Part shown: positions 18,616-52,004 of the stretch, piece by piece | Numbering within the stretch: position 1 is the stretch's first letter | Layout: each line of letters starts with the position of its first letter | Assembly: GCF_011045215.1 (NCBI RefSeq) | Contig: NZ_CP049201.1 | Source of the DNA: Escherichia coli | GTDB lineage: Bacteria > Pseudomonadota > Gammaproteobacteria > Enterobacterales > Enterobacteriaceae | DNA length: 64,000 bases | Reading direction: 5' to 3' (one strand) | The notes under the pieces: model-generated | The model's input: the letters and a program-made list of their open reading frames with translations, nothing else | The model's database searches: none | What the model was told of the DNA's origin: nothing | Translations under genes and position numbers: made by a program

Positions 18616-18635
18616 TGGGTTATTCTCCTGTTGTG

Positions 18636-19115: not shown

Positions 19116-19126
19116 AGCGGCTGACC

Positions 19127-20683: not shown

Positions 20684-20802
20684 GGATAACTCCTTATTCT
20701 CTCGATAAAAATACGAAAGGCCACACTTCCCGAAGGAGGTGTGGCCTAGCTCTGTTTATAACATCGTTGCGGGTGGTATGCTGAAGGTAACGGTAGTATG
20801 TA

Positions 20803-21565: not shown

Positions 21566-21624
21566 TGATATTGTTCCTTGATTTAACTTGCCTGCTCATC
21601 CGGGCCGGACAGCGCTGATGCCGG

Positions 21625-31556: not shown

Positions 31557-31963
31557 AAAAAGCTCGGCGAATAATATGGATTGCCCCGTTGAGGAAAATT
31601 GACAGACGAGTCAGACCTGACAATGCTGCCGGTTCTGTGTGCTTTGAGCTGAAATCCTTATCTGGCAACGTATTAACAAGGTCTTTGTGCTAAGGAAAAG
31701 TTTATGGAAAAAGATCTGAAAAGTGCTTACTGCAAACTGAATAAATCTTACTTTTTTCTTACTTGTTTGACTTCTTTTTAGACTGAACGTAGGGTGCATT
31801 TGAATGAGAGGATAGTGCTGTTTGATTGATCAATAATAAAAATTCAGTACAGTGACGGAATATCTTATTTTATTATTGTCATACACTTCAGCGCGCCGGG
31901 CCGATCATTAGCAGAGAGAGATTATTCATAGAGATAACGAAGAAACCCTATCGTTAAAGTAGA

Positions 31964-33198: not shown

Positions 33199-33396
33199 TA
33201 GCTGTGTAATGGCCGGTCTATATGGGCATTGTGGCGGGTGTTGATAACGGAAGGGACTATTACATGTCCAATTTCGTCTGGAGCTGGCCTGTGTTAATAT
33301 GAACGCTGAAGGTTCCGTAAGGCTCTTAACTCAGTGCCTGGCAAGGCTGTACAACGGCAGAATCGGATACTCAATGAATAAATTGCAGAAGAAACC

Positions 33397-34137: not shown

Positions 34138-34598
34138 GAATATTCACCGTGTTCTTTATTCTCGTCTCCGTGATGTTATGGGTACAGGTAATAAAGAAGC
34201 ACGCGGTCAGTCACCCCTCCGCGGGCAATTTTTTCTGTGCCACCAAAACGATAAGCAACATACAGGCGAAGGGGATAACCGTTGCGGGGGATATTGTCAT
34301 CGACTTCAAAACGCAACGTATTACGTTACAGCATGATGTGAAACAGCATAATAATGCGCATAGCCTGTTATATCGGGATGTTTACATGAAAAATCTGCGG
34401 CGCGTCACTGACGATCTTTTTACGTTTGAGATTGATTCTGTAAAGATATTTCCTGATGACAATGTCGGGAATTTTTTCTCCTATTTTCGCCTGCTCCATC
34501 CGGGGGGCCGCAACGAATTGCGAATTCAACGCATTGGCGAGAAAACCTATCTTTTTTCGCTTAATCGTCAGATTTATAACGTCTGTACAGCAAGTTGA
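34110..34598 (+). CDS. ToxS/TcpH-like bitopic partner protein, paralogue of 32692..33198
   Basis: Start placed at the internal Met (MYYPKRTLLRIFTVFFILVSVMLW) so that it overlaps the upstream gene by 28 nt exactly as in the first pair; C-terminal region paralogous (..YLFSLNRQIYNVCTAS versus ..YLYSLNRHLYNICTTS). Confidence 0.55.
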   Translation: MYYPKRTLLRIFTVFFILVSVMLWVQVIKKHAVSHPSAGNFFCATKTISNIQAKGITVAGDIVIDFKTQRITLQHDVKQHNNAHSLLYRDVYMKNLRRVTDDLFTFEIDSVKIFPDDNVGNFFSYFRLLHPGGRNELRIQRIGEKTYLFSLNRQIYNVCTAS

Positions 34599-34878
34599 AC
34601 TGCACAGGAATGCCCCGAGAGATTCTCTGAGGCCGTATGATAAGAGAGCGGTAAGCGGTAAGGTAACTGAAAGCTCATTACTTATTTAAATACATGGGTT
34701 TATATCAATCGTTCTGATTCTGTTCAACAGTGACAGAGTGAGATTATGATTTTTGTAAGATCTTCTTCCAGACTTTATCTGCCCTGATTAGCTATATTTT
34801 CGCCGCTGTAAACGGACATCAGAATACGTTTAAGTAGTCGTAATTAATGCTTTTTTCAATAAGATAAAGAGGGAGTAT

Positions 34879-35424
34879 TTGTCCATGTCTACGCGACTTC
34901 GTGGCGCTGCAATAATTTGTTTTTGTCTGCTAGCCTCATCTCAGAGTATGGCTAGTGGCACACATACGGTATCAATGGGGTATGCTCAAACACATCTGAG
35001 CGCATTAAAAAGCTCGAACAGCAAAGATCTTCATGGCTTTAATATAAAATATCGCTACGAGTTTGACGAACGCTGGGGCTTTATTGGTGCGTTAACGGCG
35101 ACTCGCCACGAAGTTGAGCATTATAGCTGGCAATCAGCAAAATTAAAAAAAGAGGGTACCGATACCATTGATTATAGTTCGGTAATGTTTGGCCCAACTT
35201 ATCGCTTTAATGATTACATCAGCCTGTATGGCAATGCAGGTATGGCGAGAATGAAAATGAAAAATACTCACTCAAACGAATCAACGGATGATTCGTTTGC
35301 ATACGGGGCCGGGGTAATATTTAACCCGTTAACCAACCTATCGCTTGATCTTTCCTGGGAAGCGTCAAAATTCTATTCTGTCGATGCCAATACGTTTGGC
35401 GTAAGCGTTGGCTATCGCTTTTAA
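34879..35424 (+). CDS. Ail/Lom/OmpX/PagC-family eight-stranded outer membrane beta-barrel protein
   Basis: Signal peptide, alternating amphipathic beta-strands, C-terminal ...FGVSVGYRF ending in Phe; family pattern GYAQT...FNIKYRYEF. Confidence 0.75.
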   Translation: MSMSTRLRGAAIICFCLLASSQSMASGTHTVSMGYAQTHLSALKSSNSKDLHGFNIKYRYEFDERWGFIGALTATRHEVEHYSWQSAKLKKEGTDTIDYSSVMFGPTYRFNDYISLYGNAGMARMKMKNTHSNESTDDSFAYGAGVIFNPLTNLSLDLSWEASKFYSVDANTFGVSVGYRF

Positions 35425-35485
35425 AAATTGTACTCCCAGGGAGTGGGGATAAGTAAAATCATATTAAAGAAATTAAGGTTTATCC

Positions 35486-35842
35486 ATGAAATATATATTA
35501 CCAGCTCTTTTTACGGTGTTTTTAACCGCCTGTAGCGCTAACTCATTACATTCGGGGGCGGAACGGGTTCGTGTGACTCATAACGAGCCTGGAAAAGAGT
35601 GTTCGTGGTTAGGCGACATCACTGGCAGCCAGGGCAACTTTTTTACCGGAGGTTGGACCTCGAACAGTAACCTCGAAACAGGCGCGCGGAATGATATGAA
35701 AAATCAGGCCTGGAAAATGGGTGGAAATGTTGTTGTGCTGCTAACGCAACGCGCAGGGCAAACAGGCAGTTCGTACAATGGCAGTGGTTCAAGTCAGCAA
35801 ACTAACGTGACGCTAAGCGGATCGGTCTACCGTTGCCCATAG
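35486..35842 (+). CDS. Small lipoprotein (118 aa)
   Basis: Signal peptide with lipobox (FLTACSAN), Gly/Ser-rich mature part. Confidence 0.6.
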   Translation: MKYILPALFTVFLTACSANSLHSGAERVRVTHNEPGKECSWLGDITGSQGNFFTGGWTSNSNLETGARNDMKNQAWKMGGNVVVLLTQRAGQTGSSYNGSGSSQQTNVTLSGSVYRCP

Positions 35843-36018
35843 TCTACTATATTTCATTGATGAACAGAGAGCAGATATCAACATTGACGATTGCGGTCTG
35901 CTCTGATTCATAAATGTCATAAAGGAATGATATTTCATTTTTTTGAAGGTTATTATGATAATTTCTTTTATGCCGGAAAATATATCTTATATTACTTGTG
36001 GGTATGTTGTTGTAAGGT

Positions 36019-36594
36019 ATGGATATACATTTTAAAGCACAATCTCCTGAGGCAGTAACGCTCGCCGTGTGGCCAGATAATAATCCTCTGTTCACTGACT
36101 CTCTTGCCCATTTGATCACCGAAATAAACGTAATAAATCGCGTAGAAGATTTTCTTTTCGTCAATTTTTGCATCGATAACTTTATATACTTTATTCATGA
36201 TGAGTGGCTTGAAAAGTTGAACAAGTCAGGCCTGAGGGGGGTGCTGGTTATTGACCGTTTTATGCATTCGCTGGCGAATTATTGGCGTGAAAAACAACAG
36301 GATATTATCTTGTTATCGGTTGGCGATCGGGACCTGACGTCATTTGTATCGGCCCTGAATAGCCTGTCTTATGGACAAAGCAGGGTGCTAGAAGATGTCA
36401 TGCCGATAACAGAAAAAGAAATTTTTGTGTTACGTAAACGCCTCTCCGGTATGTCCGTAAGAAATATCGCACTCACCCTTAATTGCTCGGTTAAAAGTAT
36501 TTATTATTGCCAGTATTCTTTATTAAAAAAATTGAGGCGTTCGTCACGAATAGGCGAGATTTATATCCATCACTCTCACGTGCATGAGACTTAG
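36019..36594 (+). CDS. LuxR/FixJ-type HTH transcriptional regulator (191 aa)
   Basis: C-terminal HTH EKEIFVLRKRLSGMSVRNIALTLNCSVKSIYYCQYSLLKKL fits the LuxR-type pattern; no receiver-domain motifs recognised in the N-terminal part. Confidence 0.6.
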   Translation: MDIHFKAQSPEAVTLAVWPDNNPLFTDSLAHLITEINVINRVEDFLFVNFCIDNFIYFIHDEWLEKLNKSGLRGVLVIDRFMHSLANYWREKQQDIILLSVGDRDLTSFVSALNSLSYGQSRVLEDVMPITEKEIFVLRKRLSGMSVRNIALTLNCSVKSIYYCQYSLLKKLRRSSRIGEIYIHHSHVHET

Positions 36595-36798
36595 TCGTTA
36601 GCCTGTTTTTTCTGGCGGAATGACGGCATAACCCGGAAGGGATATGCCGCCTGCTTCAGCCTATCACGCCATCAACGCAAAAACTCCCCAGCCAAAATAC
36701 TCCCGGCTGTAGGTAACATTACGCATCGGCGCCGCGCTTAACTCTGCCCGAACCTCAAGCGCGAAACCTGATCCTACCCACGTAATATGGACACAGGC

Positions 36799-37665
36799 CT
36801 AAGCGAGGTTCTGGTTTTCAAATTGTTCCGGACTGAGGCCGCCACACCAACTGTGCCGCCGCCACCGATTGTAATCACATTCGATATAATTAAACACCGT
36901 TGCCCGCATTATTTCCCGGCTGATAAAGTGTTCTCCATGGATACATTCCACTTTCAGCGAATGAAAGAAGCTTTCCACGCAGGCATTATCGTAGCAGCAA
37001 CCTTTTGCGCTCATACTTCCACGCAGATTATGCCGCTTCAGTTGCGCCTGATAATCTGCTGAACAGTACTGGCCTCCACGGTCCGTGTGAACGATAACGT
37101 TCCGGGGCCTCTTACGCCGCCACAGCGCCATCTGCAGGGCATCGCAGGCCAGTTGCGCCGTCATGCGTGGCGACATTGACCAGCCAATAACGGCACGTGA
37201 CCACAGGTCAATGACCACTGCCAGATACAGCCAGCCTTCATCTGTACGTAAGTACGTGATGTCTCCTGCCCACTTCTGGTTCGGGCCACTGGCGTAAAAA
37301 TCCTGCTCCAACAGATTTTCTGACACAGGCAGGCCGTGTGCGCGGTAGCTGACCGGGCTGAACTTCCGGGAGGCCTTTGCCCTCAGTCCCTGACGGCGCA
37401 GGCTTGCCGCCACGGTTTTTACGTTAAAGGGGTAACCCTGAGCACGCAGTTCATCCGTCAGGCGTGGGGCACCGTAACGCTGTTTTGACCGGGTAAAAGC
37501 CGCGAGGACAACGCTGTCGCAGTGTTGGCGGAACTGCTGACGCGTGCTTATCCTTGTCCGCCGCTGACACCACGTATACCAGCCGCTGCGGGCCACCCGG
37601 AGCACGCGGCACATTGCTTTGATGCTGAACTCAGCCTGATGTTTTTCAATAAAGACATACTTCAT
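36799..37665 (-). CDS. insF: IS3 transposase OrfB (DDE integrase-type catalytic domain)
   Basis: 288-aa ORF with DDE-domain residues (...WAGDITYL..., ...[10 protein letters not shown]...) inside the IS3 element. Confidence 0.9.
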
Positions 37666-37970
37666 TTCAGGCGCTTCGCGAAGTATGTCGCGGCCTTTTG
37701 GAGGATAGCCAGCTCTTCATCCCGTTCTGCCAGCTGGCGTTTGAGACGTGCAATCTCGGTAGACATCTCCAGTTCACGTTCAGAAGACGTCTGCTGATTT
37801 TGCTGTTTACTGCGCCAGTTGTAGAGCTGTGATTCATACAGGCTGAGTTCACGGGCTGCGGCAGTAACACCGATGCGTTCAGCAAGCTTCAGGGCTTCAC
37901 TGCGAAATTCAGGCGAATGCTGTTTACGGGGTTTTTTACTGGTTGATACTGTTTTTGTCATGTGAGTCAC
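37662..37970 (-). CDS. insE: IS3 transposase OrfA (HTH protein)
   Basis: 102-aa [55 protein letters not shown]... inside the IS3 element. Confidence 0.9.
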
Positions 37971-38042
37971 CTCTGACTGAGAGTTTACTCACTTAGCCGC
38001 GTGTCCACTATTGCTGGGTAAGATCACATCGCTATTAATATT

Positions 38043-38150
38043 TTGACGAATGATAAGGTATTCAAGGCAGGGTTAAGACGTAAGATGCGAAAAGCAGCCA
38101 TGGACAGAAACTATCTCGCGTCAGTACTTGCGGGGAACTGGCTTTCGTAA
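38043..38150 (+). pseudogene. 3'-terminal fragment of an ISAs1-family (H-repeat-associated) transposase gene
   Basis: Translates to [35 protein letters not shown], matching the conserved C-terminus of ISAs1/H-repeat transposases; truncated right next to the IS3 end. Confidence 0.75.
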
Positions 38151-38337
38151 TCTTGCCCTGATCCCGATAGCGGTCTAATTATTTATAGCACAAGTGGTTT
38201 TTCAATGAATGGGGAAGATCAAGTGAAAAATAATATTCATTAAAAATTGAATAAAATTGAGAGAAGTATATCTCTTTTTAAAAAAGATCCTATTACTTGA
38301 TAGAAGTAATGGTAATTTATGATATGTTCTTATTACA

Positions 38338-38906: not shown

Positions 38907-39191
38907 ATGCCCACAGCAGCCAGACTCAGCGATAAAGGCACCCAGCATGACGGTTATTATGAGACCACCATTATTGCAGGCTCCTCCACCGTCTTTATTG
39001 ATGGTATGCCCGCCGCCCGTCAGGGCGATCCGCTGACACCGCATTCCAAACCTGACCATCCCCCTCACCCCCGTAAAATCGCAGGCGGCTCTGCCACTGT
39101 CTTTATTGACGGTAAACCTGCCGCCAGAACCGGCGATGCCATTGACTGTGGCGGCGTGGTTATCGGTGGCGGCACGGTAAATATAGGCTGA
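38907..39191 (+). CDS. PAAR-domain protein (T6SS spike tip)
   Basis: 94-aa protein with PAAR repeats (DGMPAARQGDP, DGKPAARTGDAIDCGG); start placed at the internal Met preceded by GGAGA; immediately upstream of vgrG. Confidence 0.85.
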   Translation: MPTAARLSDKGTQHDGYYETTIIAGSSTVFIDGMPAARQGDPLTPHSKPDHPPHPRKIAGGSATVFIDGKPAARTGDAIDCGGVVIGGGTVNIG

Positions 39192-39211
39192 TTAATTATC
39201 AGGGAGGCTGT

Positions 39212-41611
39212 ATGCCCTCAGAAGGATTACGTTTCACGCTGTCGGTGGACGGTATCGTGGAGATGGCGACGGCGGTGGTGAGCTTCCGTCTGTACCAGCA
39301 CCACTGCACGCCGTTCATCCTGGATGTGGATATCGCCAGCGGGCTGTCTGACCTGACGGCGGAGGATTTTCTGGAGAAGAGCGCGGTGCTGACGGTCTGG
39401 CAGGGTGATATCCCGCAGCGTTACGTCAGCGGTATCGTGACGGAGGTGCAACTGGGGGAGAACAACGACTGGCAGATGCGTTATTCCCTGAGCATCAGCC
39501 CGCCGCTGTGGCGGGCAGGGTTACGGCAGAACTTCCGTATCTTCCAGCAGCAGGACATCCAGACGATATCAGCACAGCTTCTGAGAGAGAACGGAGTGAC
39601 GGCATGGATGCCGCTGTTTTATGAAGACCATCCGGCGCGGGAGTTCTGTGTGCAGTACGGGGAAAGCGACCTGGCGTTTCTGGCGCGGCTGTGGGCGGAG
39701 GAGGGGATTTTCTTCTTTGAGCGGTTTGCGGCGGACAGTCCGGAGCAGAAGCTGACGCTGTGCGACGATGTGGCGGGGCTGTCACAGGCGGGAGAGCTTC
39801 CGTTTAACCCGGACACATCGGCAGGAGCGGAGACGGAGTGTCTCAGTACGTTCCGTTATGAGGCGCATGTCCGCCCGTCGTCGGTGCAGAGTCAGGATTA
39901 CACGTTTAAGGTGCCGGACTGGCCGGGGATGTATGAGCAGCAGGGTGAGAACCTGAACGGACAGCTGGCGCAGTACGAGATATTTGATTATCCGGGAAGG
40001 TTCAAGGATGAGCAGCACGGCAAGGATTTCACGCTGTACCAGATGGACAGCCTGCGCAGTGATGCGGAAAAGGCCACAGGGCAGAGTAATTCACCGAAGC
40101 TGTGGCCGGGAACGCGGTTTACGCTGACGGGGCATCCGCAGAAGATGCTGAACCGTGAATGGCAGGTGGTACAGAGCATACTGTCAGGAAGCCAGCCGCA
40201 GGCGCTGCACGGCAGCCAGGGGAGGGGAACCACGCTGGGAAATCAGTTAGAGGTGATACCGGCAGACCGGACGTGGCGTCCACGGCTGCAAAGCAAACCG
40301 AAGGTGGACGGGCCGCAGAGTGCCATTGTGACCGGGCCGAAGGGTGAGGAGATATTCTGCGACGAACATGGCCGGGTACGGGTGAAGTTCCACTGGGACC
40401 GTTATCACGGGATGACGGAGGCGAGTTCATGCTGGGTGCGGGTATCGCAGGCGTGGGCGGGGCCGGGGTTCGGTAACCTGGCGATACCGCGGGTGGGCCA
40501 GGAGGTGATTGTTGACTTCCTGAACGGCGACCCGGACCAGCCCATCGTCACGGGACGGACCTACCATGAAGATAACCGCTCCCCGGGCGACCTGCCGGGA
40601 ACGAAGACGCAGATGACGATACGGTCGAAGACCTATAAAGAAAGCGGATTTAACGAGTTGCGGTTTGAAGACGCCACCAGTAATGAGCAGGTGTATATCC
40701 ACGCGCAGAAGAACATGGATACGGAGGTGCTCAACGACCGGACAACGGATGTGAAGCATGACCATACGGAGACCATTGGTAACGACCAGAAGATAACGGT
40801 GGTGAAGGGGCAGACGGTTGAGGTCGGGACCAGAAAAGAAGGAGGCCACGACCAGAGTATCACGGTGGCGAACGACCGGAGCATAACGGTACGTAACGAC
40901 CAGACGCTGAAGGTGACAAATGACCGGACGGTGAGCGTGAGTCACGATGACGGTCTGTACGTCAGAAATGACCGTAGGGTGACGGTGAAAGGGAAGCAGG
41001 AGCATAAGACGACGGGTAACCACATCAGCCTGGTGGAGGGGAAGCACAGCCTGGAGGTGAAGGGGGACCTGGCGGAGAAGGTGAGTGGCGCGCTGGGGAT
41101 AGAAGTGGACGGGGATATCGTGCTGGAGAGCAGCAGCCGGATAAGCCTGAAGGTGGGTGGCTCGTTTATCGTCATTCAGCCGGGCGGAGTGGATATTGCC
41201 GGGCCGAAGATAAACCTGAACGGTGGGGGCAGTGCGGGGACACCGGTGGGGACGATGCAGCCGGCGGTGCTGGAGGCTCCGGAGGATGAGAGCAGTGATG
41301 ATGGCAGTGATGACTCCGGAGAGGATAGTGGCAATCCCGCAGGGAGTGACGGAGGAGGTGATGGCGGTGACGATGAAGATGATCCTGAAAAATATACCCT
41401 CCAGTTCCATTTTACGGACGATGACGGGATACCGTATTCAGAGACGCAGTATATTGCCTTTTTTGAGGATGGCACACAGACGCGTGGTGAAACAGACAGA
41501 GAGGGATATACAGAAATATTTTATACAGATACAGCACAGGAAATTAAAGTCCAATTGTTATTTTCGGATGCTTTTTATATTGAGCCGGAGGGGCATTATG
41601 GCAGGGAATAA
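39212..41611 (+). CDS. vgrG: Type VI secretion spike protein VgrG (799 aa) with an acidic linker and a small C-terminal extension domain
   Basis: Gp27-like N-terminal region, gp5-like OB-fold and beta-helix (WAGPGFGNLAIPRVGQEVIVDFLNGDPDQPIVTGRTYHEDNR; repeated ...NDRT/ITV... units), then an Asp/Glu/Gly/Ser-rich linker and a roughly 70-aa C-terminal domain. Confidence 0.92.
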   Translation: MPSEGLRFTLSVDGIVEMATAVVSFRLYQHHCTPFILDVDIASGLSDLTAEDFLEKSAVLTVWQGDIPQRYVSGIVTEVQLGENNDWQMRYSLSISPPLWRAGLRQNFRIFQQQDIQTISAQLLRENGVTAWMPLFYEDHPAREFCVQYGESDLAFLARLWAEEGIFFFERFAADSPEQKLTLCDDVAGLSQAGELPFNPDTSAGAETECLSTFRYEAHVRPSSVQSQDYTFKVPDWPGMYEQQGENLNGQLAQYEIFDYPGRFKDEQHGKDFTLYQMDSLRSDAEKATGQSNSPKLWPGTRFTLTGHPQKMLNREWQVVQSILSGSQPQALHGSQGRGTTLGNQLEVIPADRTWRPRLQSKPKVDGPQSAIVTGPKGEEIFCDEHGRVRVKFHWDRYHGMTEASSCWVRVSQAWAGPGFGNLAIPRVGQEVIVDFLNGDPDQPIVTGRTYHEDNRSPGDLPGTKTQMTIRSKTYKESGFNELRFEDATSNEQVYIHAQKNMDTEVLNDRTTDVKHDHTETIGNDQKITVVKGQTVEVGTRKEGGHDQSITVANDRSITVRNDQTLKVTNDRTVSVSHDDGLYVRNDRRVTVKGKQEHKTTGNHISLVEGKHSLEVKGDLAEKVSGALGIEVDGDIVLESSSRISLKVGGSFIVIQPGGVDIAGPKINLNGGGSAGTPVGTMQPAVLEAPEDESSDDGSDDSGEDSGNPAGSDGGGDGGDDEDDPEKYTLQFHFTDDDGIPYSETQYIAFFEDGTQTRGETDREGYTEIFYTDTAQEIKVQLLFSDAFYIEPEGHYGRE

Positions 41612-42401
41612 TAATACTAGTGGGACTTCACAACCCGAGTCGCAAGTATGTGTAGTACCGCAAAAAATTACAAATAAATTTAAAATAATGATGAGTAAGG
41701 CTTGTAAAGCACAGAAAATGGTTTTATTGAAAAGAGCAGATGATATTATGTCATGGGAGGGGGAACAACAACGAGATTTTATTAAAGTTTTTGGCCTTAA
41801 AGGCGAGGACATTATAAAAATCAGAAAGGTTGGGGAAGATACTGGGAAACGAATGCAAGCGAGACTATTCATAATGGATGGCATCAGACAAATAATGACG
41901 ATTGCAAATGGTTTGACGATCGAAAGCTATAAAGATTATACGAACTGCAATGAATTTGCTGCTTTTATTAGTCCACATCTTGATCCTCCTTACATTGTAA
42001 ATATCGGAGCGCATTTTGAATACAGACATGGTATAAAACAGTCGGTTACAGGTAGAGACTCTCATGTAAGTACACTTTGCCATGAAATGTCCCATATATT
42101 TTGGTATTGGGGTGACAATCAAAAAGGTGGTATGTGGACTCAGGATTATACGGGTATTAATAAGTTCGCAACAAGTAATAAGGATGAAGTTAGCTATGAG
42201 AAACATGTTTCAGTGGCTAATGATCTGGTTACATTGCGTAAAGATCAGTTATTTGAGAATGCATATAATGTTGAAAGATATTTTTATATAAAATTAAATG
42301 ATGAAGATATTGAAGCTCAAGATGAGAATATGTTAGCAAAAAAAGTAGAGGATAAAATAAAAGAGATAGAAAAATGTTTTGATGAGTTGATGGGGAAATA
42401 A
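41598..42401 (+). CDS. Putative T6SS effector: uncharacterised protein with an HExxH zinc-metallopeptidase-like motif (267 aa)
   Basis: Start ATG lies within the last 14 nt of vgrG (translational coupling); contains CHEMSHIFWYWGDNQKGGMWTQDYTG (HExxH followed by conserved Asp residues); abrupt drop in GC content relative to vgrG; followed by a secreted-protein gene. Confidence 0.6.
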   Translation: MAGNNNTSGTSQPESQVCVVPQKITNKFKIMMSKACKAQKMVLLKRADDIMSWEGEQQRDFIKVFGLKGEDIIKIRKVGEDTGKRMQARLFIMDGIRQIMTIANGLTIESYKDYTNCNEFAAFISPHLDPPYIVNIGAHFEYRHGIKQSVTGRDSHVSTLCHEMSHIFWYWGDNQKGGMWTQDYTGINKFATSNKDEVSYEKHVSVANDLVTLRKDQLFENAYNVERYFYIKLNDEDIEAQDENMLAKKVEDKIKEIEKCFDELMGK

Positions 42402-42402
42402 G

Positions 42403-43242
42403 ATGAAGAGGTTGGCTTTCTATAATCTAAATTATGTTGTACTGATGGTTTTTTTTCTTTGTTTTTTGCCATTATCTATTGCAATTGCAATAGATAATGA
42501 GAATCTTTTTGTAAAAAAATACAGATTCGGTTTTGAACGAAGAAATGACAATGGGAAACCAATTATTTATCTTAGCCATAATTTAGCGCCAGAGGAAAAT
42601 ATAAGTAATGAATTAACAAATGATGTTGTTGTTAAATTGGTGGTTAAGCCACATGCTGAAAATATTTTAGCTACTATAACTTTTTATAACAGTAGTACTA
42701 AATCGTATTTTCTCCCCAGAATATATTATCCAAAGAACTTCCAAAAAGGAAATGGAGATGTATTTGATGCTTTGTGTGATGACGAATTCTTGATTACATC
42801 AGGAAATATTAGCTTAGACTATCTAGGAGGCTTTTGTCCCTTTGAGCTTGATTTGAATTTGAGCCGATGGGTGGAAATTACGGCAGGTAAAAAAATATCT
42901 TTTGATGTAAAATTGAATGATATGCATTCATTTCTCCCCAGTTTAAATAATTATCATATAAAAACATTAAACTACAAACTTGTTAGGAGAAAATGGTTTG
43001 TATTAAAATCAATTAATGAAACATTCCTCTCTATTTTGATGAAAAGATACTCATGTAATGAATATGATTTTAGAGCTATATCATTTAGTGGAGAGGGATG
43101 TGATAATTATGAATTTGATAAAAATACGTTTTTTTTTGTTAATCAAATATTAGATAAAGATGATGAGCAACATTCTGTTCATATTAGGTCTAATGAATTT
43201 TCCATCAATATCGATGGAAGCTTGGTAAAGCAACCTTATTGA
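42403..43242 (+). CDS. Putative cognate immunity protein (279 aa, N-terminal signal peptide or membrane anchor)
   Basis: Begins 1 nt after the effector stop; hydrophobic N-terminus (VVLMVFFLCFLPLSIAIAI) suggests periplasmic localisation; AT-rich like the effector gene. Confidence 0.5.
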   Translation: MKRLAFYNLNYVVLMVFFLCFLPLSIAIAIDNENLFVKKYRFGFERRNDNGKPIIYLSHNLAPEENISNELTNDVVVKLVVKPHAENILATITFYNSSTKSYFLPRIYYPKNFQKGNGDVFDALCDDEFLITSGNISLDYLGGFCPFELDLNLSRWVEITAGKKISFDVKLNDMHSFLPSLNNYHIKTLNYKLVRRKWFVLKSINETFLSILMKRYSCNEYDFRAISFSGEGCDNYEFDKNTFFFVNQILDKDDEQHSVHIRSNEFSINIDGSLVKQPY

Positions 43243-43304
43243 TTAAAATGTATCGCAGGTTTTATTTTCTGTAATGCTGGTGCATGTGCGTAAATATTTC
43301 TTAA

Positions 43305-43730
43305 GAGCCGGAAACACCTCTTCCGCCTTTATCGACGATAAACCTACCGCCAGAACCGGTGATGCCATTGACTGCGGTGGCGTGGTTAAAGGTGGAGGGC
43401 GATGTGGTGCTGGAGAGCAGCAGCCGGATAAGCCTGAAGGTGGGCGGCTCGTTTGTGGTCATCCATTCAGGGGGCGTGGACATCGTCGGGCCGAAAATCA
43501 ATCTCAATAGCGGCGGTAGTCCGGGAACGCCGGTGCCGACGCTGCAACCGGCGGTTCTGAAAGCGCTGGCAGATGATAAAAGTTTAGCGGCTGAGCAAAA
43601 TGATAGTAATGCATCGTCCGATCAGAATGATAACAACGATGAGGGTGAGGAAGCGCCAGAAAAATCGGTGTGTAAGGAGTGCCTGAAAAGGGCGCAAGAA
43701 GCCGCCGCCGTTTTTGCGCCTCGTGGATAA
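43305..43730 (+). pseudogene. PAAR-vgrG deletion-fusion remnant (3' end of a PAAR gene joined to the 3' end of a second vgrG)
   Basis: 43309..43392 closely matches the PAAR 3' end at 39092..39175 (...FIDDKPTARTGDAIDCGGVV...); from about 43393 the sequence matches vgrG at about 41110..41245 (VLESSSRISLKVGGSF.V.....GGVDI.GPKINLN.GG) and then continues into a different C-terminal tail. Confidence 0.8.
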
Positions 43731-43736
43731 GGGAGA

Positions 43737-44506
43737 ATGACAATGATAACAGTATCGCCACACGCTACCGATCAAGACAAATATATTATCTGGCTGAAGC
43801 AAGCTGAATCATTCTGTTCTGCCGCTGGTTTGGATTACATAGATGTGCTTGTTGACCAGGCTGGAACCGACCAACCTTTGCAAAATGATATGCTTCATCT
43901 GTCGCCAGCCATTCACTGGTATGCCCTGTTTGAAGGAACGCCTGAAGCTGAGACGATGGAGTATTCCCCTGTAGTGTTACGCCTGTACTTTGCGCTCAGT
44001 AGCCATCGCAAATTTCTGGCACAACTGATGGCGTCATTTGCTGATACGCCGCGTCTTACTTTGTTGATATCCCCTCTTACATTCGACCTGCTGGGCGGCA
44101 TCTTCAGGTATTGTCACAGGTTCAGTGGGAAGAACAGACCGGATTGCTGCGTTACTATGATAATCGGGTGTTCCCTTTACTGTTCACACATGTTTTGACT
44201 AACGAGCAGCAGGCGACATTTACTGATATTGCGTTGTTCTGGAGCTGGTTAGACCGTGATGGTGAGATTAACTGGAAATCAGGAAGTTTTTCACCAGAAC
44301 GCAGGCTTACTGACAACCCGGAGATGAATCGGGTGGATGATGTACAGGTGGGATTGATGGGCTGTATCTGCGACGCTGAAGTCCTGATGAAGGAGAAAGC
44401 AGTCAGTGAACTCAGTCAGGAAAGCTATTTTGCCCACTGTCTTGATATTGCTTTCAGGGCCAATGACGCGAAATATTTCGGAGCTTTGCGGGACTTCGAA
44501 GGATAA
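43737..44506 (+). pseudogene. T6SS adaptor/chaperone-like gene (DUF4123-type, Tap/Tec family), split across two overlapping reading frames
   Basis: Two overlapping ORFs (43737..44198 and 44111..44506) together span about 256 codons, in the adaptor position between a vgrG 3' end and a DUF2235 effector gene; family assignment is by position and recalled sequence character. Confidence 0.5.
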
Positions 44507-44819
44507 TATTGTGGTGATGTACGGGGAGATTTATCTGTTTAAAAGTCCGTAGCTGTTAATATCAAGAGATAATCGTGAAATAAACGGAAAATCAAGCTCG
44601 ACATGTAATGGTAGTATCCATCATGTTGCATTTGTGTTCGATCGTAATGTCAGTTCACTTGGCTGCAATATATTTTGCGTAATATCATCAATGCTCTGTC
44701 GATATTCCAATGTGTGACAATCGAAAGATATGCATTTTATTTGCTTCTATGTCAAAACTTTATTGTCGTAGAAACAATACCCATCAATTAAAATCTCTCA
44801 AAGTAAAAGAACCAGCAAC

Positions 44820-45362
44820 ATGTCCAGCAAAATAAGAAATGGAATGAATATAACAAAAGTAGTTAAAGGCTGTCTGGTATTAATTTTGATGGTGATTTCT
44901 GGTTGCTCAGCAGATAATTACGACGATTATACTGCAGGTGATCTCCGGGCAATAAATCATATTAAAGGTATCAGTATTAATTGGTTCACCGTAAATGGTT
45001 ATCGGGTCCATGGTTTGGGCGGTGGATATTGCTGCATAATGTTACCAAAGAAGTGGCATTCTGGATTAAAAGCCCGGATCGAGTGGGAAGTAGACCCGAC
45101 CCCCCTTGAACCTATTGCAATGAAAAAAGAAGGTTTTGGCTATGAAGAAGATGCTTATGCTAAACATGCTGCAAATTATCAAAAATATAAAGTAATTGTT
45201 GACATCCCGGAATACGGCGCTGAACGTTGTGGCCTGACCGTTCATTTTCTGCCGTGTAATCAGATTAAAGTGACAACCGTCTGCGAGGGCTATGGCACAC
45301 CGAATTATCCTATCAAAGAACCCCGCGAGATGAAGGAACCTGCAACATGTCCAGCAAAATAA
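44820..45362 (+). CDS. Lipoprotein (180 aa), candidate Tle1-associated immunity or accessory protein (DUF3304-like)
   Basis: Signal peptide with lipobox (LILMVISGCSADN); directly upstream of and overlapping the Tle1-like gene. Confidence 0.55.
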   Translation: MSSKIRNGMNITKVVKGCLVLILMVISGCSADNYDDYTAGDLRAINHIKGISINWFTVNGYRVHGLGGGYCCIMLPKKWHSGLKARIEWEVDPTPLEPIAMKKEGFGYEEDAYAKHAANYQKYKVIVDIPEYGAERCGLTVHFLPCNQIKVTTVCEGYGTPNYPIKEPREMKEPATCPAK

Positions 45363-47440
45363 GTGGTCTGGCTTTTCCGTGTTATGCCCCCCCGGTGTTC
45401 CCTGAAGATGGGCGATTAATATTATCTGAAGCGCAGGTAAACGCGAACTACCTAAAACAAATCAATAAAACAGAAGAGCACAAAACCAACTGTAGTAAAC
45501 AGGCTGGATTTAGAATTGGCTTTACGTGTAATCAAAGTATGCATATTAGTCTGTTTTTTGATGGTACAAATAATAATGAATATAATGACACTCCTGGACA
45601 CCCAACCAATATTGCCAAACTGTTTCATACGACCTATCAGAACGCAGAAGAACAGGGATATTTTAACTACTATATACCGGGTGTAGGCACACCATTTCCC
45701 AAGATAGGTGAAATGGATTACAGCAACAGCGGGCTGGAGTTCGCTACTGGTGGTGAAGATCGAATTAATTGGGCATTATTACGCCTCGTGGATGCCCTGA
45801 GCTATTCCATTGACCCTTCCCATAAGCGACTGGATGATAATGTGGCAAAAGAGCACATTCCTCTTATGCGCGCTCCCTGGCCTATGACTGGTGAAGTGAA
45901 TCGTCGCAATGTGATTAACCCCTACCTGGAAAAATTACAGGGACTGTTAGAGCAAGCCAGTCCGCGCCTGCTAAACGTAAAGCTGTTTATCTACGGATTT
46001 TCCCGTGGCGCAGCGGAAGCACGAACTTTTGTTAACTGGTTGACTCAGTTAGCTTGCCCGCAGGAGCAACAGGTGATGCTGGCCGGGTTAGCTGTCAGTA
46101 TTGAGTTTTTGGGGCTGCTGGATACCGTAGCTTCTGTGGGGGCGGCGCATGTTTTACCGGGCGCTGCCGGTCATATGGGATGGGCCGATAGTACTCAGCA
46201 ACTCCCTGATGAGAGGCAGTTTCCCGGCCTGATTAAATGCTGCCGCCACTTCGTTGCCGCGCATGAGCAGCGGCTGTGCTTTCCGCTGGATTCAATCCGT
46301 CGTCCAGACGGAAATTATCCTTTAAATGCAGAGGAAATTATCTATCCGGGGATGCACTCTGATGTCGGTGGTGGCTATCCCGTTCGCGATCAGGGGAAGT
46401 CCTGTGGTGACTCAGGCGAAATTCTTTCTCAGATAGCACTGCATGATATGTATCTTGCTGCATTTGATTCAGGAGCACCACTTGCTGTTTATTCTAAATT
46501 TGTTACTCCATTAATAAAAGGTGTGTCGCCTCTGCGAATTATGAGTCCTTCTAGCGTAAAGGAATTTACGATTGCTAATTCATTAACAAAACGCTTCAAC
46601 ATCTGGCGACAAACGCTGCTGAACACCACCTTGCAGGGTACAGAAGAAATGATTGATACGAGGGAAGGTTATCACTCCTATCAACTTGCCCAGGTTCTTG
46701 AAAGCGCAATTAGCGATCAGATCGGCTGGATCACCGCCTGGCGTATCGGTCGCTATGCGAATAACAGCCTTCTTGTGCAACCTTTTTATATTAAGGCGCC
46801 ACAGCTGGATAAAGATGGACTTGATAAAGAGGCTAAAGCGCGTAAAGAACAAATGGAAAATATTGAAAAAGAGCGGGCGAACAAGCAGAAAGGGAATGGC
46901 ACACTTGATGAAAGTAATCAGGGCATTCCTATCCTTGACCCAACCAATGCTCAGTATCAGTTGCGAGAGGCAGCCCGAGAATTTCAGAGCGATTATAAAG
47001 GATGGACGCGCGATATTAACGGCAGCGTCATGGAGAAAGCCATTCAGATTCTTGTGGATGTCATTCCTAAATATCCGGTGTATCTGATTAATGGCGATGA
47101 TGAAGCAAAAGAATATCAGCAAATTAAGGCTATGGGAGACGGACTCTATCCACAATTTTTTATTGATTCACTGGGAACGGGAACGCGTACTCAGCCATGC
47201 GCTGAATTACTGGCCCTCTATGATGACCAGGTTCACGACTCCCGCGCCTGGTTTATGCAAAGTTCGCTGGGTGGACGTGAACCCTGGGGCGGTTATTTTC
47301 GCTACCGCATGATTTACTTCGGTGATGAGGCTAATAAAGAGCTGAAGCTAATCTCTGCAGATGGCAAAGTTGTTGGCGATCAGCCCACATCCAACCGGGT
47401 CATTTATTGGATGGAATCGAAAACGGTGAGCCGAGGTTAA
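45347..47440 (+). CDS. Tle1-family T6SS phospholipase effector (DUF2235 alpha/beta-hydrolase, 697 aa)
   Basis: DUF2235 hallmark ISLFFDGTNNNEYND...; nucleophile elbow GxSxG (IYGFSRGAAEAR); vgrG-adaptor-effector gene order. Confidence 0.75.
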   Translation: MSSKISGLAFPCYAPPVFPEDGRLILSEAQVNANYLKQINKTEEHKTNCSKQAGFRIGFTCNQSMHISLFFDGTNNNEYNDTPGHPTNIAKLFHTTYQNAEEQGYFNYYIPGVGTPFPKIGEMDYSNSGLEFATGGEDRINWALLRLVDALSYSIDPSHKRLDDNVAKEHIPLMRAPWPMTGEVNRRNVINPYLEKLQGLLEQASPRLLNVKLFIYGFSRGAAEARTFVNWLTQLACPQEQQVMLAGLAVSIEFLGLLDTVASVGAAHVLPGAAGHMGWADSTQQLPDERQFPGLIKCCRHFVAAHEQRLCFPLDSIRRPDGNYPLNAEEIIYPGMHSDVGGGYPVRDQGKSCGDSGEILSQIALHDMYLAAFDSGAPLAVYSKFVTPLIKGVSPLRIMSPSSVKEFTIANSLTKRFNIWRQTLLNTTLQGTEEMIDTREGYHSYQLAQVLESAISDQIGWITAWRIGRYANNSLLVQPFYIKAPQLDKDGLDKEAKARKEQMENIEKERANKQKGNGTLDESNQGIPILDPTNAQYQLREAAREFQSDYKGWTRDINGSVMEKAIQILVDVIPKYPVYLINGDDEAKEYQQIKAMGDGLYPQFFIDSLGTGTRTQPCAELLALYDDQVHDSRAWFMQSSLGGREPWGGYFRYRMIYFGDEANKELKLISADGKVVGDQPTSNRVIYWMESKTVSRG

Positions 47441-47697: not shown

Positions 47698-50480
<2,783 letters not shown>

Positions 50481-50648: not shown

Positions 50649-51152
50649 ATGGTAGATATTGTCGAGGCCGATAAAACGGATATTTATTTCATTCAGGAGA
50701 GTGTTTATGGCAAAATCGGGTTGCCAGCTTTTGGTAATACAATAGGACCATCCGCACAGCAGGTTGTTAAAAAGGTATTCGCTGTCGTTAAAGAACGAGA
50801 TAAAACACATGCAAAACAGAGATTATTGTTGGAATATAATGGTAACAAACTCTGGATGAATGCTATTGATGGCAGTGAAGCTATCCTACCAATAGAATTT
50901 TCTAAGCGATACGAACTTTCATTATTCAATACTACTAATTTTGGAGAAGATCCTTTTCCTGATGTTAATTTATATAATAATATGAAATCAAGTTTTTTTG
51001 TAAGGTTTGGTGGAACATCCCATCCCGAGGCTTGGGCTATTTATAATGCAAGTACGAAAGAGGTTAAATATATAGAAACTGCAAGAGAAATTGATAAAAT
51101 ATTCAGTGATTTTAACTTGAGTGGTGCATTGCCAATTCACATTGGTCAATGA
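50649..51152 (+). CDS. Hypothetical protein (167 aa), AT-rich
   Basis: ORF only; no recognised motif. Confidence 0.35.
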   Translation: MVDIVEADKTDIYFIQESVYGKIGLPAFGNTIGPSAQQVVKKVFAVVKERDKTHAKQRLLLEYNGNKLWMNAIDGSEAILPIEFSKRYELSLFNTTNFGEDPFPDVNLYNNMKSSFFVRFGGTSHPEAWAIYNASTKEVKYIETAREIDKIFSDFNLSGALPIHIGQ

Positions 51153-51218
51153 TTTTTTAAATTGTGTGATTAAATAATTGAACATTAATGATGATTTATA
51201 GCATCATTATTCTATAAC

Positions 51219-51731
51219 ATGAATAAACGGATTGAATGTGTTATGTTAAAAATGAGTTTATACGTAATAATATTGTTATTTTCCTTTCAGATTAGTGCAG
51301 CCATTACTAGCAAGGAAAGTGAGGTTGTTTCACCATTATTAATGGATGTTAATTCTTCACTAACAATGGAAAATATTTCTGAATTATCCACATCATCGGA
51401 ACCATCGCAACAGGGGGTATTTCCTGTAATATGTACTCGACTTCATCCTGGTTCCGTAATGAAACGCCAGTTATTAACCGGCTGGGGGCCTGTTTTTATA
51501 ATTGGTGATGATCCTTTTTCTCTGCGCTGGATGAGTGAACATCTGGAGATCCTTAAATCGCTAAATGCCCTTGGTTTGGTTGTTAATGTTGAATCAGTAG
51601 AACGAATGGAGGTATTACAGCAGCGGGCTGATGGGTTATTGTTATTGCCAGTTATCTGCGATAATTTCGTGCAAACTCTGCAATTAAATGCTTATCCGGT
51701 ATTAATCACAGAGATGGAAATATCACAATGA
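51219..51731 (+). CDS. Hypothetical protein (170 aa) with a probable N-terminal signal peptide, AT-rich
   Basis: Hydrophobic N-terminus (LKMSLYVIILLFSFQISAA); no recognised motif. Confidence 0.35.
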   Translation: MNKRIECVMLKMSLYVIILLFSFQISAAITSKESEVVSPLLMDVNSSLTMENISELSTSSEPSQQGVFPVICTRLHPGSVMKRQLLTGWGPVFIIGDDPFSLRWMSEHLEILKSLNALGLVVNVESVERMEVLQQRADGLLLLPVICDNFVQTLQLNAYPVLITEMEISQ

Positions 51732-51754
51732 TTAATAACATAATTACTGCAAAT

Positions 51755-51945
51755 AATATTGTAATTTTGAAAATGGTAATCCTGTTCACGACACCATAAT
51801 TAGAGTTATGTCTTGTATCCGTTCAGTATAATTTCACGAGTGCTTTATTAACTGGATGCGTGACTGCCATTCATCAAATGACAAAGACGTCATCGCGATT
51901 GATGGAAAAGCACTTCCACACTCCTATGATAAAAGTGGTCGCAGG
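51755..51945 (+). pseudogene. Internal fragment of an ISAs1-family (H-repeat) transposase gene (yafF-like remnant)
   Basis: Translates to FENGNPVHDTIIRVMSCI...[39 protein letters not shown], matching ISAs1 transposase codons about 55-118; lies next to yafV, where K-12 carries an H-repeat pseudogene. Confidence 0.7.
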
Positions 51946-52004
51946 AGAGCGGGCTTTCGTAGTCTTCCCCGACTCTCCCCAGCCCTAAACACAACCCCCA
52001 CTCA

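What the first reader, a model, noticed from the sequence alone, without database searches (positions are those of the whole stretch)
38907..47440. Orphan PAAR-VgrG effector island with no T6SS structural genes in 64 kb
The window has a PAAR gene, a full-length vgrG, two effector cassettes and a vgrG remnant, but no tssA-M, hcp or clpV genes. The spike/effector module must therefore be served by a T6SS core encoded elsewhere in the genome, or be silent cargo. The locus is bracketed by IS3, ISAs1 and IS21-family elements, consistent with mobile acquisition.
Basis: partly seen in the sequence, partly recalled or inferred. Interest (0 to 1): 0.5.

Follow-up and report, generated by a model that had tools for sequence, protein, structure and literature searches.

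The report
Leftover tail of a deleted T6SS-1 cluster
This is the spike-and-toxin end of the ordinary E. coli type VI secretion cluster, left in its normal chromosomal place after an IS3-linked rearrangement removed the firing machinery; this kind of decay is common and already documented.

Summary
Window 38907-47440 holds an intact PAAR gene, a full-length vgrG (799 aa), an M35-like toxin with a putative immunity gene, a vgrG remnant, and a Tla1/Tli1a/Tle1 phospholipase cassette. No T6SS core gene lies anywhere in the 64 kb.

The 'mobile acquisition' reading is not supported. The window is the E. coli aspV-yafV interval, the usual T6SS-1 site. From PAAR to yafV it is colinear with, and mostly 99-100% identical to, the 3' tail of complete T6SS-1 clusters in other strains. 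The ISAs1 pseudogenes belong to that tail.

The left edge is an IS3 copy with no target-site duplication, abutting a truncated ISAs1. This marks a deletion or recombination junction. IS100 is a recent simple insertion with a 5-bp duplication; the empty site survives in a near-identical isolate.

The Tle1 arm is further degraded. Its own PAAR-vgrG is reduced to a fused stub, and its adaptor gene tla1 has a 1-nt frameshift.

Another strain (2018-05-2CC) shows a parallel insertion-sequence-linked core loss, and such losses are published for ST410 and ST131.

Whether a T6SS core elsewhere still uses this spike cannot be tested from 64 kb. The case is ordinary and of low interest.

The parts
15726..15802 (+). 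tRNA-Asp (aspV), the left anchor of the variable aspV-yafV interval
   Evidence: ARAGORN; Rfam tRNA; synteny with L002, where dnaQ precedes aspV
15803..36768 (.). Unrelated genomic island: CP4-like CbtA/YeeU module, IS110, an EAL-domain protein, a 1403-aa autotransporter, winged-helix regulators, an OmpX/Ail-like protein and a LuxR/EcpR-like regulator. It contains no T6SS genes.
   Evidence: 99.8% identical over its full length to E. coli PapRG-06-5; NCBIfam
36769..38026 (-). IS3 (1258 bp; orfA 37662-37970, orfB 36799-37665) forming the rearrangement junction. The flanking triplets are ACC and CAT, so there is no target-site duplication.
   Evidence: The left flank is identical to IS3#1 of PapRG-06-5; the right flank lies inside an ISAs1 copy.
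38027..38160 (+). The last ~135 bp of an ISAs1 element, truncated by the IS3 junction
   Evidence: aligned to the frameshifted, near-full-length ISAs1 upstream of PAAR in ET350, L003
38161..38906 (+). AT-rich spacer that regularly separates ISAs1 from PAAR in PAAR-vgrG modules
   Evidence: 99-100% identical to the ET350 module at yncG-pptA. The promoter scan was no better than shuffled sequence.
38907..39191 (+). PAAR spike-tip gene, intact (94 aa)
   Evidence: NCBIfam NF033420, 161 bits. The exact protein occurs in many E. coli PAAR-vgrG modules.
39212..41611 (+). Full-length T6SS-1-class VgrG (799 aa) with a C-terminal extension that precedes the M35-like gene. It is mosaic: the 5' ~300 nt match the ET350 orphan module at 100%, and the rest matches T6SS-1 cluster vgrG.
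   Evidence: Identity to a T6SS-2 VgrG is only 32%.
41598..42401 (+). M35-like metallopeptidase effector candidate (267 aa, HEMSH motif)
   Evidence: 99.3% identical to proteins that RefSeq names 'peptidase M35'. The Pfam Aspzincin_M35 match is marginal. There is no NCBIfam or PDB sequence match.
42403..43242 (+). Putative cognate immunity protein (279 aa, N-terminal signal-like hydrophobic segment). The gene carries two poly-T tracts whose length varies between strains.
   Evidence: Function is inferred from position and from the M35PAR-immunity pair in PMC10673891.
43323..43730 (+). Fused remnant of a second spike set. A PAAR 3' fragment (43323-43398) is joined at a short GGTGG-type microhomology to the last ~115 codons of a VgrG (43384-43730). 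This VgrG tail is the docking tail of the Tle1-dedicated spike.
   Evidence: The tail is 96% identical to the C-terminus of the 743-aa VgrG that precedes tla1 in strain A32.
43737..44506 (+). tla1 (DUF4123 adaptor/chaperone for Tle1), a pseudogene. One G is lost from a GGGG run at about 44093.
   Evidence: NCBIfam Tla1 matches both halves; alignment; split hits in tblastn
44820..45362 (+). tli1a-family (DUF3304) lipoprotein immunity gene, intact. The 3' end of a lost upstream paralogue is visible at 44806-44836.
   Evidence: NCBIfam Tli1a_fam, 199 bits; repeat D5; A32 carries three copies
45347..47440 (+). tle1 phospholipase effector, intact (697 aa, GFSRG motif)
   Evidence: Pfam Tle1 catalytic and C-terminal domains. 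The closest solved structure is P. aeruginosa Tle1, 4O5P, E = 2e-117.
47700..50421 (+). ISAs1 pseudogene that ends the T6SS-1 tail in all compared strains. Here it is split by IS100 (48276-50229, istB/istA on the minus strand) with the 5-bp duplication GCCAC.
   Evidence: The empty site is present in L017.
50649..52004 (+). Conserved right end of the interval: a hypothetical gene (50649-51152), a PFL_4695-family integrating-conjugative-element (ICE) protein gene (51243-51731) and an ISAs1 fragment (51756-51951), directly followed by yafV (52005-52781, minus strand)

Best explanation
The locus is the in-place 3' stump of the chromosomal E. coli T6SS-1 gene cluster that normally fills the aspV-yafV interval.

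In intact strains the order is tssA...tssB, then hcp, then one or more [PAAR]-vgrG-effector-immunity modules. The last module is vgrG-tla1-tli1a(n)-tle1. It is followed by an ISAs1 pseudogene, two small genes, an ISAs1 fragment and yafV.

In this strain's lineage three things happened.
- Ancient, and shared with strains that still have the core: a PAAR-vgrG(M35)-M35-immunity module came to lie upstream of the Tle1 module. The Tle1 module's own PAAR-vgrG was then deleted down to a fused stub.
- An IS3-associated event joined an unrelated aspV island to a point inside the ISAs1 copy upstream of PAAR. The event was either an adjacent deletion or recombination between IS3 copies, possibly through imported DNA. 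It removed all core genes, hcp and any upstream vgrG modules.
- Later changes: a 1-nt slippage broke tla1, and IS100 inserted into the dead ISAs1.

Shown: the synteny, the junction anatomy, the absence of core genes in the window and the tla1 frameshift.

Inferred: without a compatible T6SS-1 core the spike and toxins cannot be fired. The Tle1 arm would be crippled even if a core were present, because it has no docking VgrG tail and no adaptor. The only parts that could still be useful are the two intact immunity genes, which would protect against relatives that fire the same M35-like and Tle1 toxins.
For: - Position. aspV is at 15726-15802. yafV, ivy and fadE lie directly to the right.
- Colinearity. 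The window from 38906 to yafV aligns with complete T6SS-1 clusters in GPT24-02, A32 and ECNB21-M121. Sliding identity is 99-100% over most of 40.7-47.4 kb.
- ISAs1 is native to the cluster. ISAs1 pseudogenes occupy the same places inside those complete clusters.
- IS3 junction. IS3 has no target duplication (ACC versus CAT). Its left flank equals that in PapRG-06-5, where different DNA follows.
- The junctions are rare. None of 5,426 complete genomes has the LuxR-IS3-ISAs1'-PAAR junction or the IS100 insertion.
- IS100 is a simple insertion. It has the 5-bp duplication GCCAC, and the empty site survives in a 99.95-100% identical isolate.
- No core genes. No T6SS-1 or T6SS-2 core homologue is in the window.
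- Parallel case. In strain 2018-05-2CC an IS3-family element abuts a 156-nt tssB stub, followed by hcp, a truncated vgrG, IS600, M35 and a frameshifted tle1.
- Decay of the Tle1 arm. tla1 is frameshifted and the dedicated spike is reduced to a stub.
- Published precedent. T6SS core loss by deletion or insertion sequences is described in E. coli ST410 and ST131 (PMC10711316). The last 20 residues of the VgrG tail, together with Tla1, are needed to dock Tle1 in P. aeruginosa (PMC13133936).
Against: - PAAR, VgrG, the M35-like gene, tle1 and both immunity genes are still intact reading frames. This fits either very recent loss or continued use.
- The rest of the genome was not available, so a second T6SS-1-type core cannot be excluded. 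In some E. coli such a core sits on another island or on a plasmid (PMC10711316 mentions a plasmid-borne T6SS-2 region and additionally acquired chromosomal-type T6SS-1 regions).
- The ISAs1-spacer-PAAR-vgrG 5' segment is about 100% identical to a true orphan module at yncG-pptA in strain ET350. Part of the locus was therefore exchanged by recombination with such modules.
- I cannot distinguish an in-lineage deletion from replacement by imported DNA.
- Too few substitutions separate the window from its relatives to test for relaxed selection.
Confidence: 0.75

Rival explanations
1. Working auxiliary module. The PAAR-VgrG-M35 set, and possibly Tle1, is still loaded onto a T6SS-1-type apparatus encoded elsewhere in this genome, on another island or a plasmid. 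In effect the stump would function as an orphan vgrG island.
For: - PAAR, VgrG, the M35-like gene, its immunity gene, tli1a and tle1 are all intact.
- Orphan PAAR-vgrG islands with nearly identical spike genes exist at yncG-pptA and near sucD in other E. coli.
- Draft assemblies of near-identical isolates break inside vgrG. This suggests other vgrG copies in those genomes.
- Orphan islands are generally thought to depend on a distant core (PMC13098142).
Against: - The usual T6SS-1 site in this genome is empty of core genes.
- This VgrG is only 32% identical to a T6SS-2 VgrG, so service by a T6SS-2 core is doubtful (inference).
- The Tle1 arm lacks both its adaptor and its docking tail.
- No hcp is linked.
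Confidence: 0.2
2. Mobile acquisition. The block was brought in as cargo of IS3, ISAs1 or IS21-family elements.
For: - Insertion sequences of three families lie at or near both ends.
- IS3 and ISAs1 are statistically enriched next to chromosomal orphan islands (PMC13098142).
Against: - The two bracketing elements belong to different families, so they cannot act as a composite transposon.
- IS3 has no target duplication.
- IS100 is a later simple insertion into a pre-existing ISAs1 pseudogene; it is absent from a near-identical isolate.
- The ISAs1 copies are degenerate and occupy the same positions in complete T6SS-1 clusters.
- The right-hand boundary with yafV is ancestral.
Confidence: 0.04
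3. Retained as a defensive immunity island. The stump persists because the two immunity genes protect against T6SS-1-armed relatives. The toxin and spike genes are passengers that have not yet decayed.
For: - Both immunity genes are intact while the adaptor is broken.
- Strains firing the same M35-like and Tle1 toxins are present among complete E. coli genomes (724 of 5,426 match part of the region).
- This is an add-on to the best explanation rather than a strict alternative.
Against: - There is no expression or competition data.
- The immunity gene's poly-T tracts vary between strains and could switch it off.
- The number of substitutions is too small to show purifying selection.
Confidence: 0.3

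Closest known systems
E. coli chromosomal T6SS-1 cluster at aspV-yafV (e.g. strains GPT24-02, A32, ECNB21-M121; the ST131 locus described in PMC10711316)
   Same: Same chromosomal site and same gene order from PAAR to yafV. Identity is 99-100% over most of the tail. The ISAs1 pseudogenes sit at the same positions. The architecture is the same: multiple vgrG modules ending in DUF4123 plus a Tle1-like (DUF2235) gene.
   Different: All core genes (tssA-M), hcp and the upstream vgrG modules are missing. An unrelated island is joined on through IS3. tla1 is frameshifted and IS100 is inserted.
Documented T6SS loss in E. coli ST410 (21-kb and 19.8-kb deletions) and ST131 clade C (ISEc12 in tssM), PMC10711316; also strain 2018-05-2CC seen here
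   Same: Lineage-specific loss of essential T6SS genes through deletion or insertion-sequence activity. Spike, effector and other remnant genes are left in place.
   Different: A different junction (IS3 / truncated ISAs1) and a larger loss. Only the cargo tail remains. The junction was not seen in 5,426 complete genomes.
P. aeruginosa PAO1 vgrG4a-tla1-tli1-tle1 locus (PMC13133936; Tle1 structure 4O5P)
   Same: Same gene order: VgrG tail, DUF4123 adaptor, DUF3304 lipoprotein immunity gene, Tle1. Tle1 matches 4O5P at E = 2e-117. NCBIfam Tla1 and Tli1a models match.
   Different: The dedicated VgrG is reduced to a 115-codon stub fused to a PAAR fragment, and the adaptor is a pseudogene. The module also sits in a T6SS-1 E. 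coli context rather than H2-T6SS.
M35-type metallopeptidase T6SS toxins: VgrG2b C-terminal domain with PA0261, and E. coli PAR VgrG / DUF2345 / M35PAR / immunity (PMC10673891)
   Same: A small HExxH protein encoded directly after a vgrG that has a DUF2345-like extension, followed by a secreted putative immunity protein. RefSeq names it peptidase M35.
   Different: Sequence support for M35 membership is weak (Pfam i-E 0.0014, no PDB sequence match). I did not compare it directly with the PAR protein. In the window the DUF2345-like part is fused to VgrG, not split off.
True orphan / auxiliary PAAR-vgrG islands of E. coli (yncG-pptA and sucD-side arrays bounded by ISAs1; the general class is described in PMC13098142)
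   Same: The same ISAs1-spacer-PAAR-vgrG 5' unit, 99-100% identical. Same modular layout of spike, effector and immunity genes. Same association with ISAs1 and IS3.
   Different: Those islands lie away from the main cluster site. This one lies at the main site and continues into the cluster's native right end.

Membership tests
E. coli T6SS-1 gene cluster (complete system) | All 13 core genes tssA-tssM present | tested here: not met
   tblastn with T6SS-1 proteins from L001 and T6SS-2 proteins from L004 found only vgrG, PAAR and cargo genes in the 64 kb.
E. coli T6SS-1 gene cluster (complete system) | Chromosomal position and right-end synteny: ...Tle1, ISAs1 pseudogene, hypothetical gene, ICE gene, ISAs1 fragment, yafV | tested here: met
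E. coli T6SS-1 gene cluster (complete system) | vgrG modules followed by effectors, including a DUF4123 plus DUF2235/Tle1 pair | tested here: met
   described for ST131 T6SS-1 in PMC10711316
Orphan / auxiliary vgrG island | hcp, vgrG or PAAR with adjacent effector-immunity genes | tested here: met
Orphan / auxiliary vgrG island | [quoted passage not shown] | tested here: not met
   It occupies the canonical site and is colinear with the 3' tail of the cluster.
Orphan / auxiliary vgrG island | A complete, compatible T6SS encoded elsewhere in the same genome | not testable with these tools
   The source chromosome (5,409,430 bp; proteins QIF15453-56) is not in the searchable collections.
VgrG-Tla1-Tli1a-Tle1 delivery module | Tle1 phospholipase with catalytic and C-terminal domains and a GxSxG motif | tested here: met
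   Pfam PF09994 plus PF22137; 4O5P at E = 2e-117; GFSRG in the translation
VgrG-Tla1-Tli1a-Tle1 delivery module | Intact DUF4123 adaptor Tla1 | tested here: not met
   1-nt deletion in a G run at about 44093. The two halves match Tla1 model positions 1-101 and 103-232 in different frames.
VgrG-Tla1-Tli1a-Tle1 delivery module | A dedicated VgrG whose C-terminal tail docks Tle1 and Tla1 | tested here: not met
   Only a 115-codon stub fused to a PAAR fragment remains. The full-length VgrG has a different C-terminus. The role of the tail comes from PMC13133936.
VgrG-Tla1-Tli1a-Tle1 delivery module | Tli1a-family lipoprotein immunity gene | tested here: met
   NF053804 scores 199 bits against a cutoff of 110; lipobox-like ISGC in the translation
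M35 (aspzincin) metallopeptidase T6SS effector | Significant match to the M35 profile and an HExxH zinc site | tested here: inconclusive
   HEMSH is present. Pfam Aspzincin_M35 gives only i-E 0.0014 over 74 residues. There is no NCBIfam or PDB sequence match. The RefSeq name is 'peptidase M35'.
M35 (aspzincin) metallopeptidase T6SS effector | Toxicity that is neutralised by the downstream gene | not testable with these tools
   Shown for M35PAR in PMC10673891, not for this protein.
Composite transposon / IS-mobilised island | Matching insertion-sequence copies at both ends and a target-site duplication around the unit | tested here: not met
   IS3 on the left and IS100 on the right belong to different families. 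IS3 has no duplication. IS100 carries its own 5-bp duplication.

The most novel reading that the evidence does not exclude
The 115-codon VgrG tail stub (ORF 43359-43730) may not be junk. It is kept at 99-100% identity in strains that still have a complete T6SS-1 and intact tla1, tli1a and tle1 (GPT24-02, ECNB21-M121). If translated, it could act as a free-standing docking adaptor. It would present the Tle1/Tla1-binding tail on a heterologous VgrG, much as the separately encoded DUF2345 of E. coli PAR bridges VgrG and M35PAR. In this window the idea is moot, because tla1 is broken and the core is gone.
Probability: 0.07. Interest if true: 0.5.

Novelty: already known. Interest (0 to 1): 0.15.

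Why it matters
It matters little beyond annotation. The locus should be recorded as a degraded T6SS-1 locus, not as an acquired orphan island. It adds one more independent example of insertion-sequence-linked T6SS loss in E. coli. It also shows how spike-effector cassettes stack up and displace one another, leaving a PAAR'-'vgrG stub. If the strain is used in competition or colonisation work, expect it to be T6SS-1-negative but possibly still immune to the M35-like and Tle1 toxins of its relatives.

Tried and rejected
- **Source genome.** I tried to identify it in order to search for a core elsewhere. No complete RefSeq E. coli genome contains the junctions. The exact VgrG is not on record. 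The exact M35, immunity, Tli1a and Tle1 proteins map to QIF15453-56 on a 5.41-Mb chromosome that the tools cannot read. Only short Logan contigs and draft contigs that break inside vgrG were retrievable.
- **Promoter and terminator scan** of the ISAs1-PAAR spacer. It gave 3 promoter-like sites against 3.4 expected, so it is uninformative.
- **Selection test** on window-specific substitutions. There were only 0-1 changes per gene, too few to say anything.
- **Rfam scan** of 15-64 kb. Nothing turned up in or near the locus.
- **The 83-aa ORF in the spacer** (38338-38589). It has no family match and is not called in relatives, so I treat it as non-coding.
- **Composite-transposon model.** Rejected on insertion-sequence family mismatch and target-duplication evidence.
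- **T6SS-1 versus T6SS-2 naming.** I considered that the names might be swapped and checked against PMC10711316. Clusters with DUF4123/DUF2235 cargo are T6SS-1, and clusters with rhs are T6SS-2.
Full report
**What is there.**
- PAAR, 38907-39191 (NF033420, 161 bits).
- A full-length VgrG, 39212-41611 (799 aa; TIGR03361, 597 bits; Phage_GPD, Phage_base_V and Gp5_trimer_C).
- A 267-aa HExxH protein that RefSeq calls peptidase M35, 41598-42401. Its Pfam Aspzincin_M35 match is only marginal (i-E 0.0014).
- A 279-aa protein with a signal-like N-terminus, 42403-43242.
- A vgrG remnant.
- A DUF4123/Tla1 gene, 43737-44506.
- A DUF3304/Tli1a lipoprotein gene, 44820-45362.
- A 697-aa Tle1 phospholipase gene, 45347-47440 (both Tle1 Pfam domains). 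Its closest solved structure is P. aeruginosa Tle1, 4O5P, at E = 2e-117.

- The remnant is a fusion. The last ~75 nt of a PAAR gene (43323-43398, 88% identical to 39101-39172) are joined at a short GGTGG-type microhomology to the last ~115 codons of a vgrG.
- tla1 is a pseudogene. One G is missing from a GGGG run at about 44093, so the two halves match the Tla1 model in different frames.

**No core genes.**
tblastn with the T6SS-1 proteins of a complete cluster returned only the vgrG, PAAR and cargo genes. The query set covered part of TssA, VasI, TssH, TssL, TssK, TssJ, TagH, TssG, TssF, TssE, TssC, TssB and Hcp. A set of 20 T6SS-2 proteins, including TssM and TssA, added only an OmpA-like domain in lafU. 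The rest of the window is accounted for by synteny and family searches. It runs metN, gmhB, rrnH, dkgB...dnaQ, aspV, then a 21-kb island of unrelated genes, and on the right yafV, ivy, fadE...lafU.

**Where it sits.**
The window is the E. coli aspV-yafV interval. In strains GPT24-02, A32 and ECNB21-M121 this interval holds a complete T6SS-1 cluster. The segment from PAAR or vgrG to yafV in those strains has the same gene order as the window. That order includes the ISAs1 pseudogene after tle1, a 167-aa hypothetical gene, a PFL_4695-family integrating-conjugative-element (ICE) protein gene and a further ISAs1 fragment next to yafV. Sliding-window identity to these clusters is 99-100% over most of 40.7-47.4 kb. 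The T6SS-1 naming follows PMC10711316, which classes the ST131 cluster with DUF4123/DUF2235 cargo as T6SS-1 and rhs-bearing clusters as T6SS-2. The locus is therefore the native tail of the main cluster, not a separate orphan island.

**The left junction.**
IS3 occupies 36769-38026 (1258 bp). Its flanking triplets are ACC and CAT, so there is no 3-bp target duplication. The 21 kb from aspV to IS3, including the left IS3 flank, is 99.8% identical to strain PapRG-06-5. In that strain the same IS3 copy is followed by fimbrial genes and then a T6SS-2-type cluster. In the window IS3 is instead followed by the last 135 bp of an ISAs1 element, a 750-bp spacer and PAAR.

An IS3 copy with one conserved and one novel flank and no duplication is what an adjacent deletion would leave. 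Recombination between two IS3 copies, possibly during import of foreign DNA, would leave the same pattern. I cannot tell these apart. Either way the event separated the cargo tail from whatever core lay upstream. No complete genome among 5,426 has this junction, so the event is lineage-specific.

**The right-side insertion sequence.**
IS100 (48276-50229) carries a 5-bp duplication, GCCAC. It interrupts the ISAs1 pseudogene that is already part of the cluster tail. The uninterrupted site is present in a draft genome that is 99.95-100% identical to the window (GCA_910665095.1). It is a late, simple insertion and has nothing to do with how the locus arrived.

**A parallel case.**
Strain 2018-05-2CC has the same CP4-like island next to aspV. 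It is followed by an IS3-family element, a 156-nt tssB stub, hcp, an N-terminally truncated vgrG, IS600, M35, immunity, the same stub, DUF4123 and a frameshifted tle1. Published work describes the same kind of loss in ST410 (two deletions) and in ST131 clade C (ISEc12 in tssM) (PMC10711316). A recent survey reports thousands of chromosomal vgrG/PAAR/hcp mini-loci and finds IS3 and ISAs1 enriched beside them (PMC13098142).

**History of the cargo.**
In A32 the last module is PAAR, a 743-aa VgrG, tla1, three tli1a copies and tle1. The stub in the window is 96% identical to the C-terminus of that VgrG. So the M35 module (PAAR-VgrG-M35-immunity) came to lie in front of the Tle1 module, and the Tle1 module's own PAAR-vgrG was then deleted. 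This state is shared with core-positive strains and is older than the core loss.

The window's ISAs1'-spacer-PAAR-vgrG 5' segment (38028 to about 39500) is about 100% identical to a true orphan module at yncG-pptA in strain ET350. It diverges from that module further into vgrG. The exact PAAR protein recurs in arrays of ISAs1-bounded PAAR-vgrG modules in many genomes. Recombination among such modules has therefore shaped the 5' end.

**Likely function now.**
Shown: the reading frames of PAAR, VgrG, the M35-like gene, its neighbour, tli1a and tle1 are intact, and tla1 is not.

Inferred from P. aeruginosa: there, Tle1 and Tla1 dock on the last 20 residues of the VgrG4a tail (PMC13133936). In the window that tail survives only in the stub, and the adaptor is broken. 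The Tle1 arm would therefore be disabled even with a core present.

The VgrG is of the T6SS-1 class: 75-92% identical to cluster VgrGs and 32% identical to a T6SS-2 VgrG. A T6SS-2 core, if the genome has one, is an unlikely host. My best estimate is that the weapon function is lost. The two immunity genes may still protect against relatives that carry these toxins. I could not test this, because the source chromosome (5.41 Mb, proteins QIF15453-56) is not readable with the tools. The few substitutions available say nothing about selection.

**Verdict.**
The 'core elsewhere or silent' dichotomy is fair but untestable here. 'Mobile acquisition' is not supported. The locus is an ordinary, already understood kind of thing: a decayed T6SS-1 cluster tail at its native site.

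Noticed in passing
window 38027-39500; L003 (ET350) 18992-22891; L008-L015: A recurring unit of ISAs1, a ~750-bp AT-rich spacer, PAAR and vgrG occurs in tandem arrays at yncG-pptA and next to sucD in other E. coli. The window's copy is ~100% identical to one of them up to ~300 nt into vgrG and then diverges. This suggests cassette exchange by recombination within ISAs1 and vgrG.
   Followed up: partly
window 42403-43242 (poly-T tracts at ~42449-42456 and ~43129-43137): The putative M35 immunity gene carries two T8/T9 homopolymer tracts whose length differs between strains. The result is 279-aa, 258-aa or 249-aa products (cluster members). This could be slippage-driven on/off or C-terminal variation.
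   Followed up: partly
window 44806-44836 and 45333-45363: A 31-nt repeat marks the overlap 'end of a DUF3304 gene / ATG of the next gene'. The upstream copy has no gene before it, so it is the scar of a lost tli1a paralogue. Strain A32 has three copies. The surviving copy is only 59% identical in protein to the one in GPT24-02.
   Followed up: partly
L002 (PapRG-06-5) 36927-38184 and 47434-48701: Neither of the two IS3 copies in PapRG-06-5 has a matching target duplication (ACC/ACT and ACT/CTT). The right flank of the first copy equals the left flank of the second (ACT). This hints at an earlier IS3-mediated rearrangement in that strain too.
   Followed up: no
window 27345-31556 (- strand): A 1403-aa AIDA-I/ECSE_1600-like autotransporter lies in the aspV island. 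Next to it are an EAL-domain c-di-GMP phosphodiesterase-like gene (25243-26790) and an IS110-family transposase gene (23207-24376). This island segment was found in only one complete genome, PapRG-06-5.
   Followed up: partly
window 31964-33198 and 33397-34598: Two paralogous gene pairs, each a winged-helix (CadC/ToxR-like) membrane regulator followed by an overlapping ~170-aa partner with no family match. They are followed by an OmpX/Ail-like gene, a DUF4156 lipoprotein gene and an EcpR-like LuxR regulator gene.
   Followed up: no
window 16240-20683 (- strand): A CP4-like cryptic-prophage block lies directly next to aspV: DUF4942, DUF5983, CbtA toxin/YeeU antitoxin, RadC, an antirestriction protein and DUF932. 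The same block sits upstream of the decayed T6SS-1 locus in strain 2018-05-2CC.
   Followed up: partly
window 56715-56792, 60044-60121, 60781-61060: Five copies of the naRNA4 (REP-derived) element reach the Rfam gathering score. Three of them are in tandem downstream of the rayT-like ORF (60221-60718).
   Followed up: no
window 61138-63607: A remnant of the lateral flagella (Flag-2) locus: an N-terminally truncated flhA-like gene on the minus strand overlapping lafU. Many E. coli carry the same remnant.
   Followed up: no
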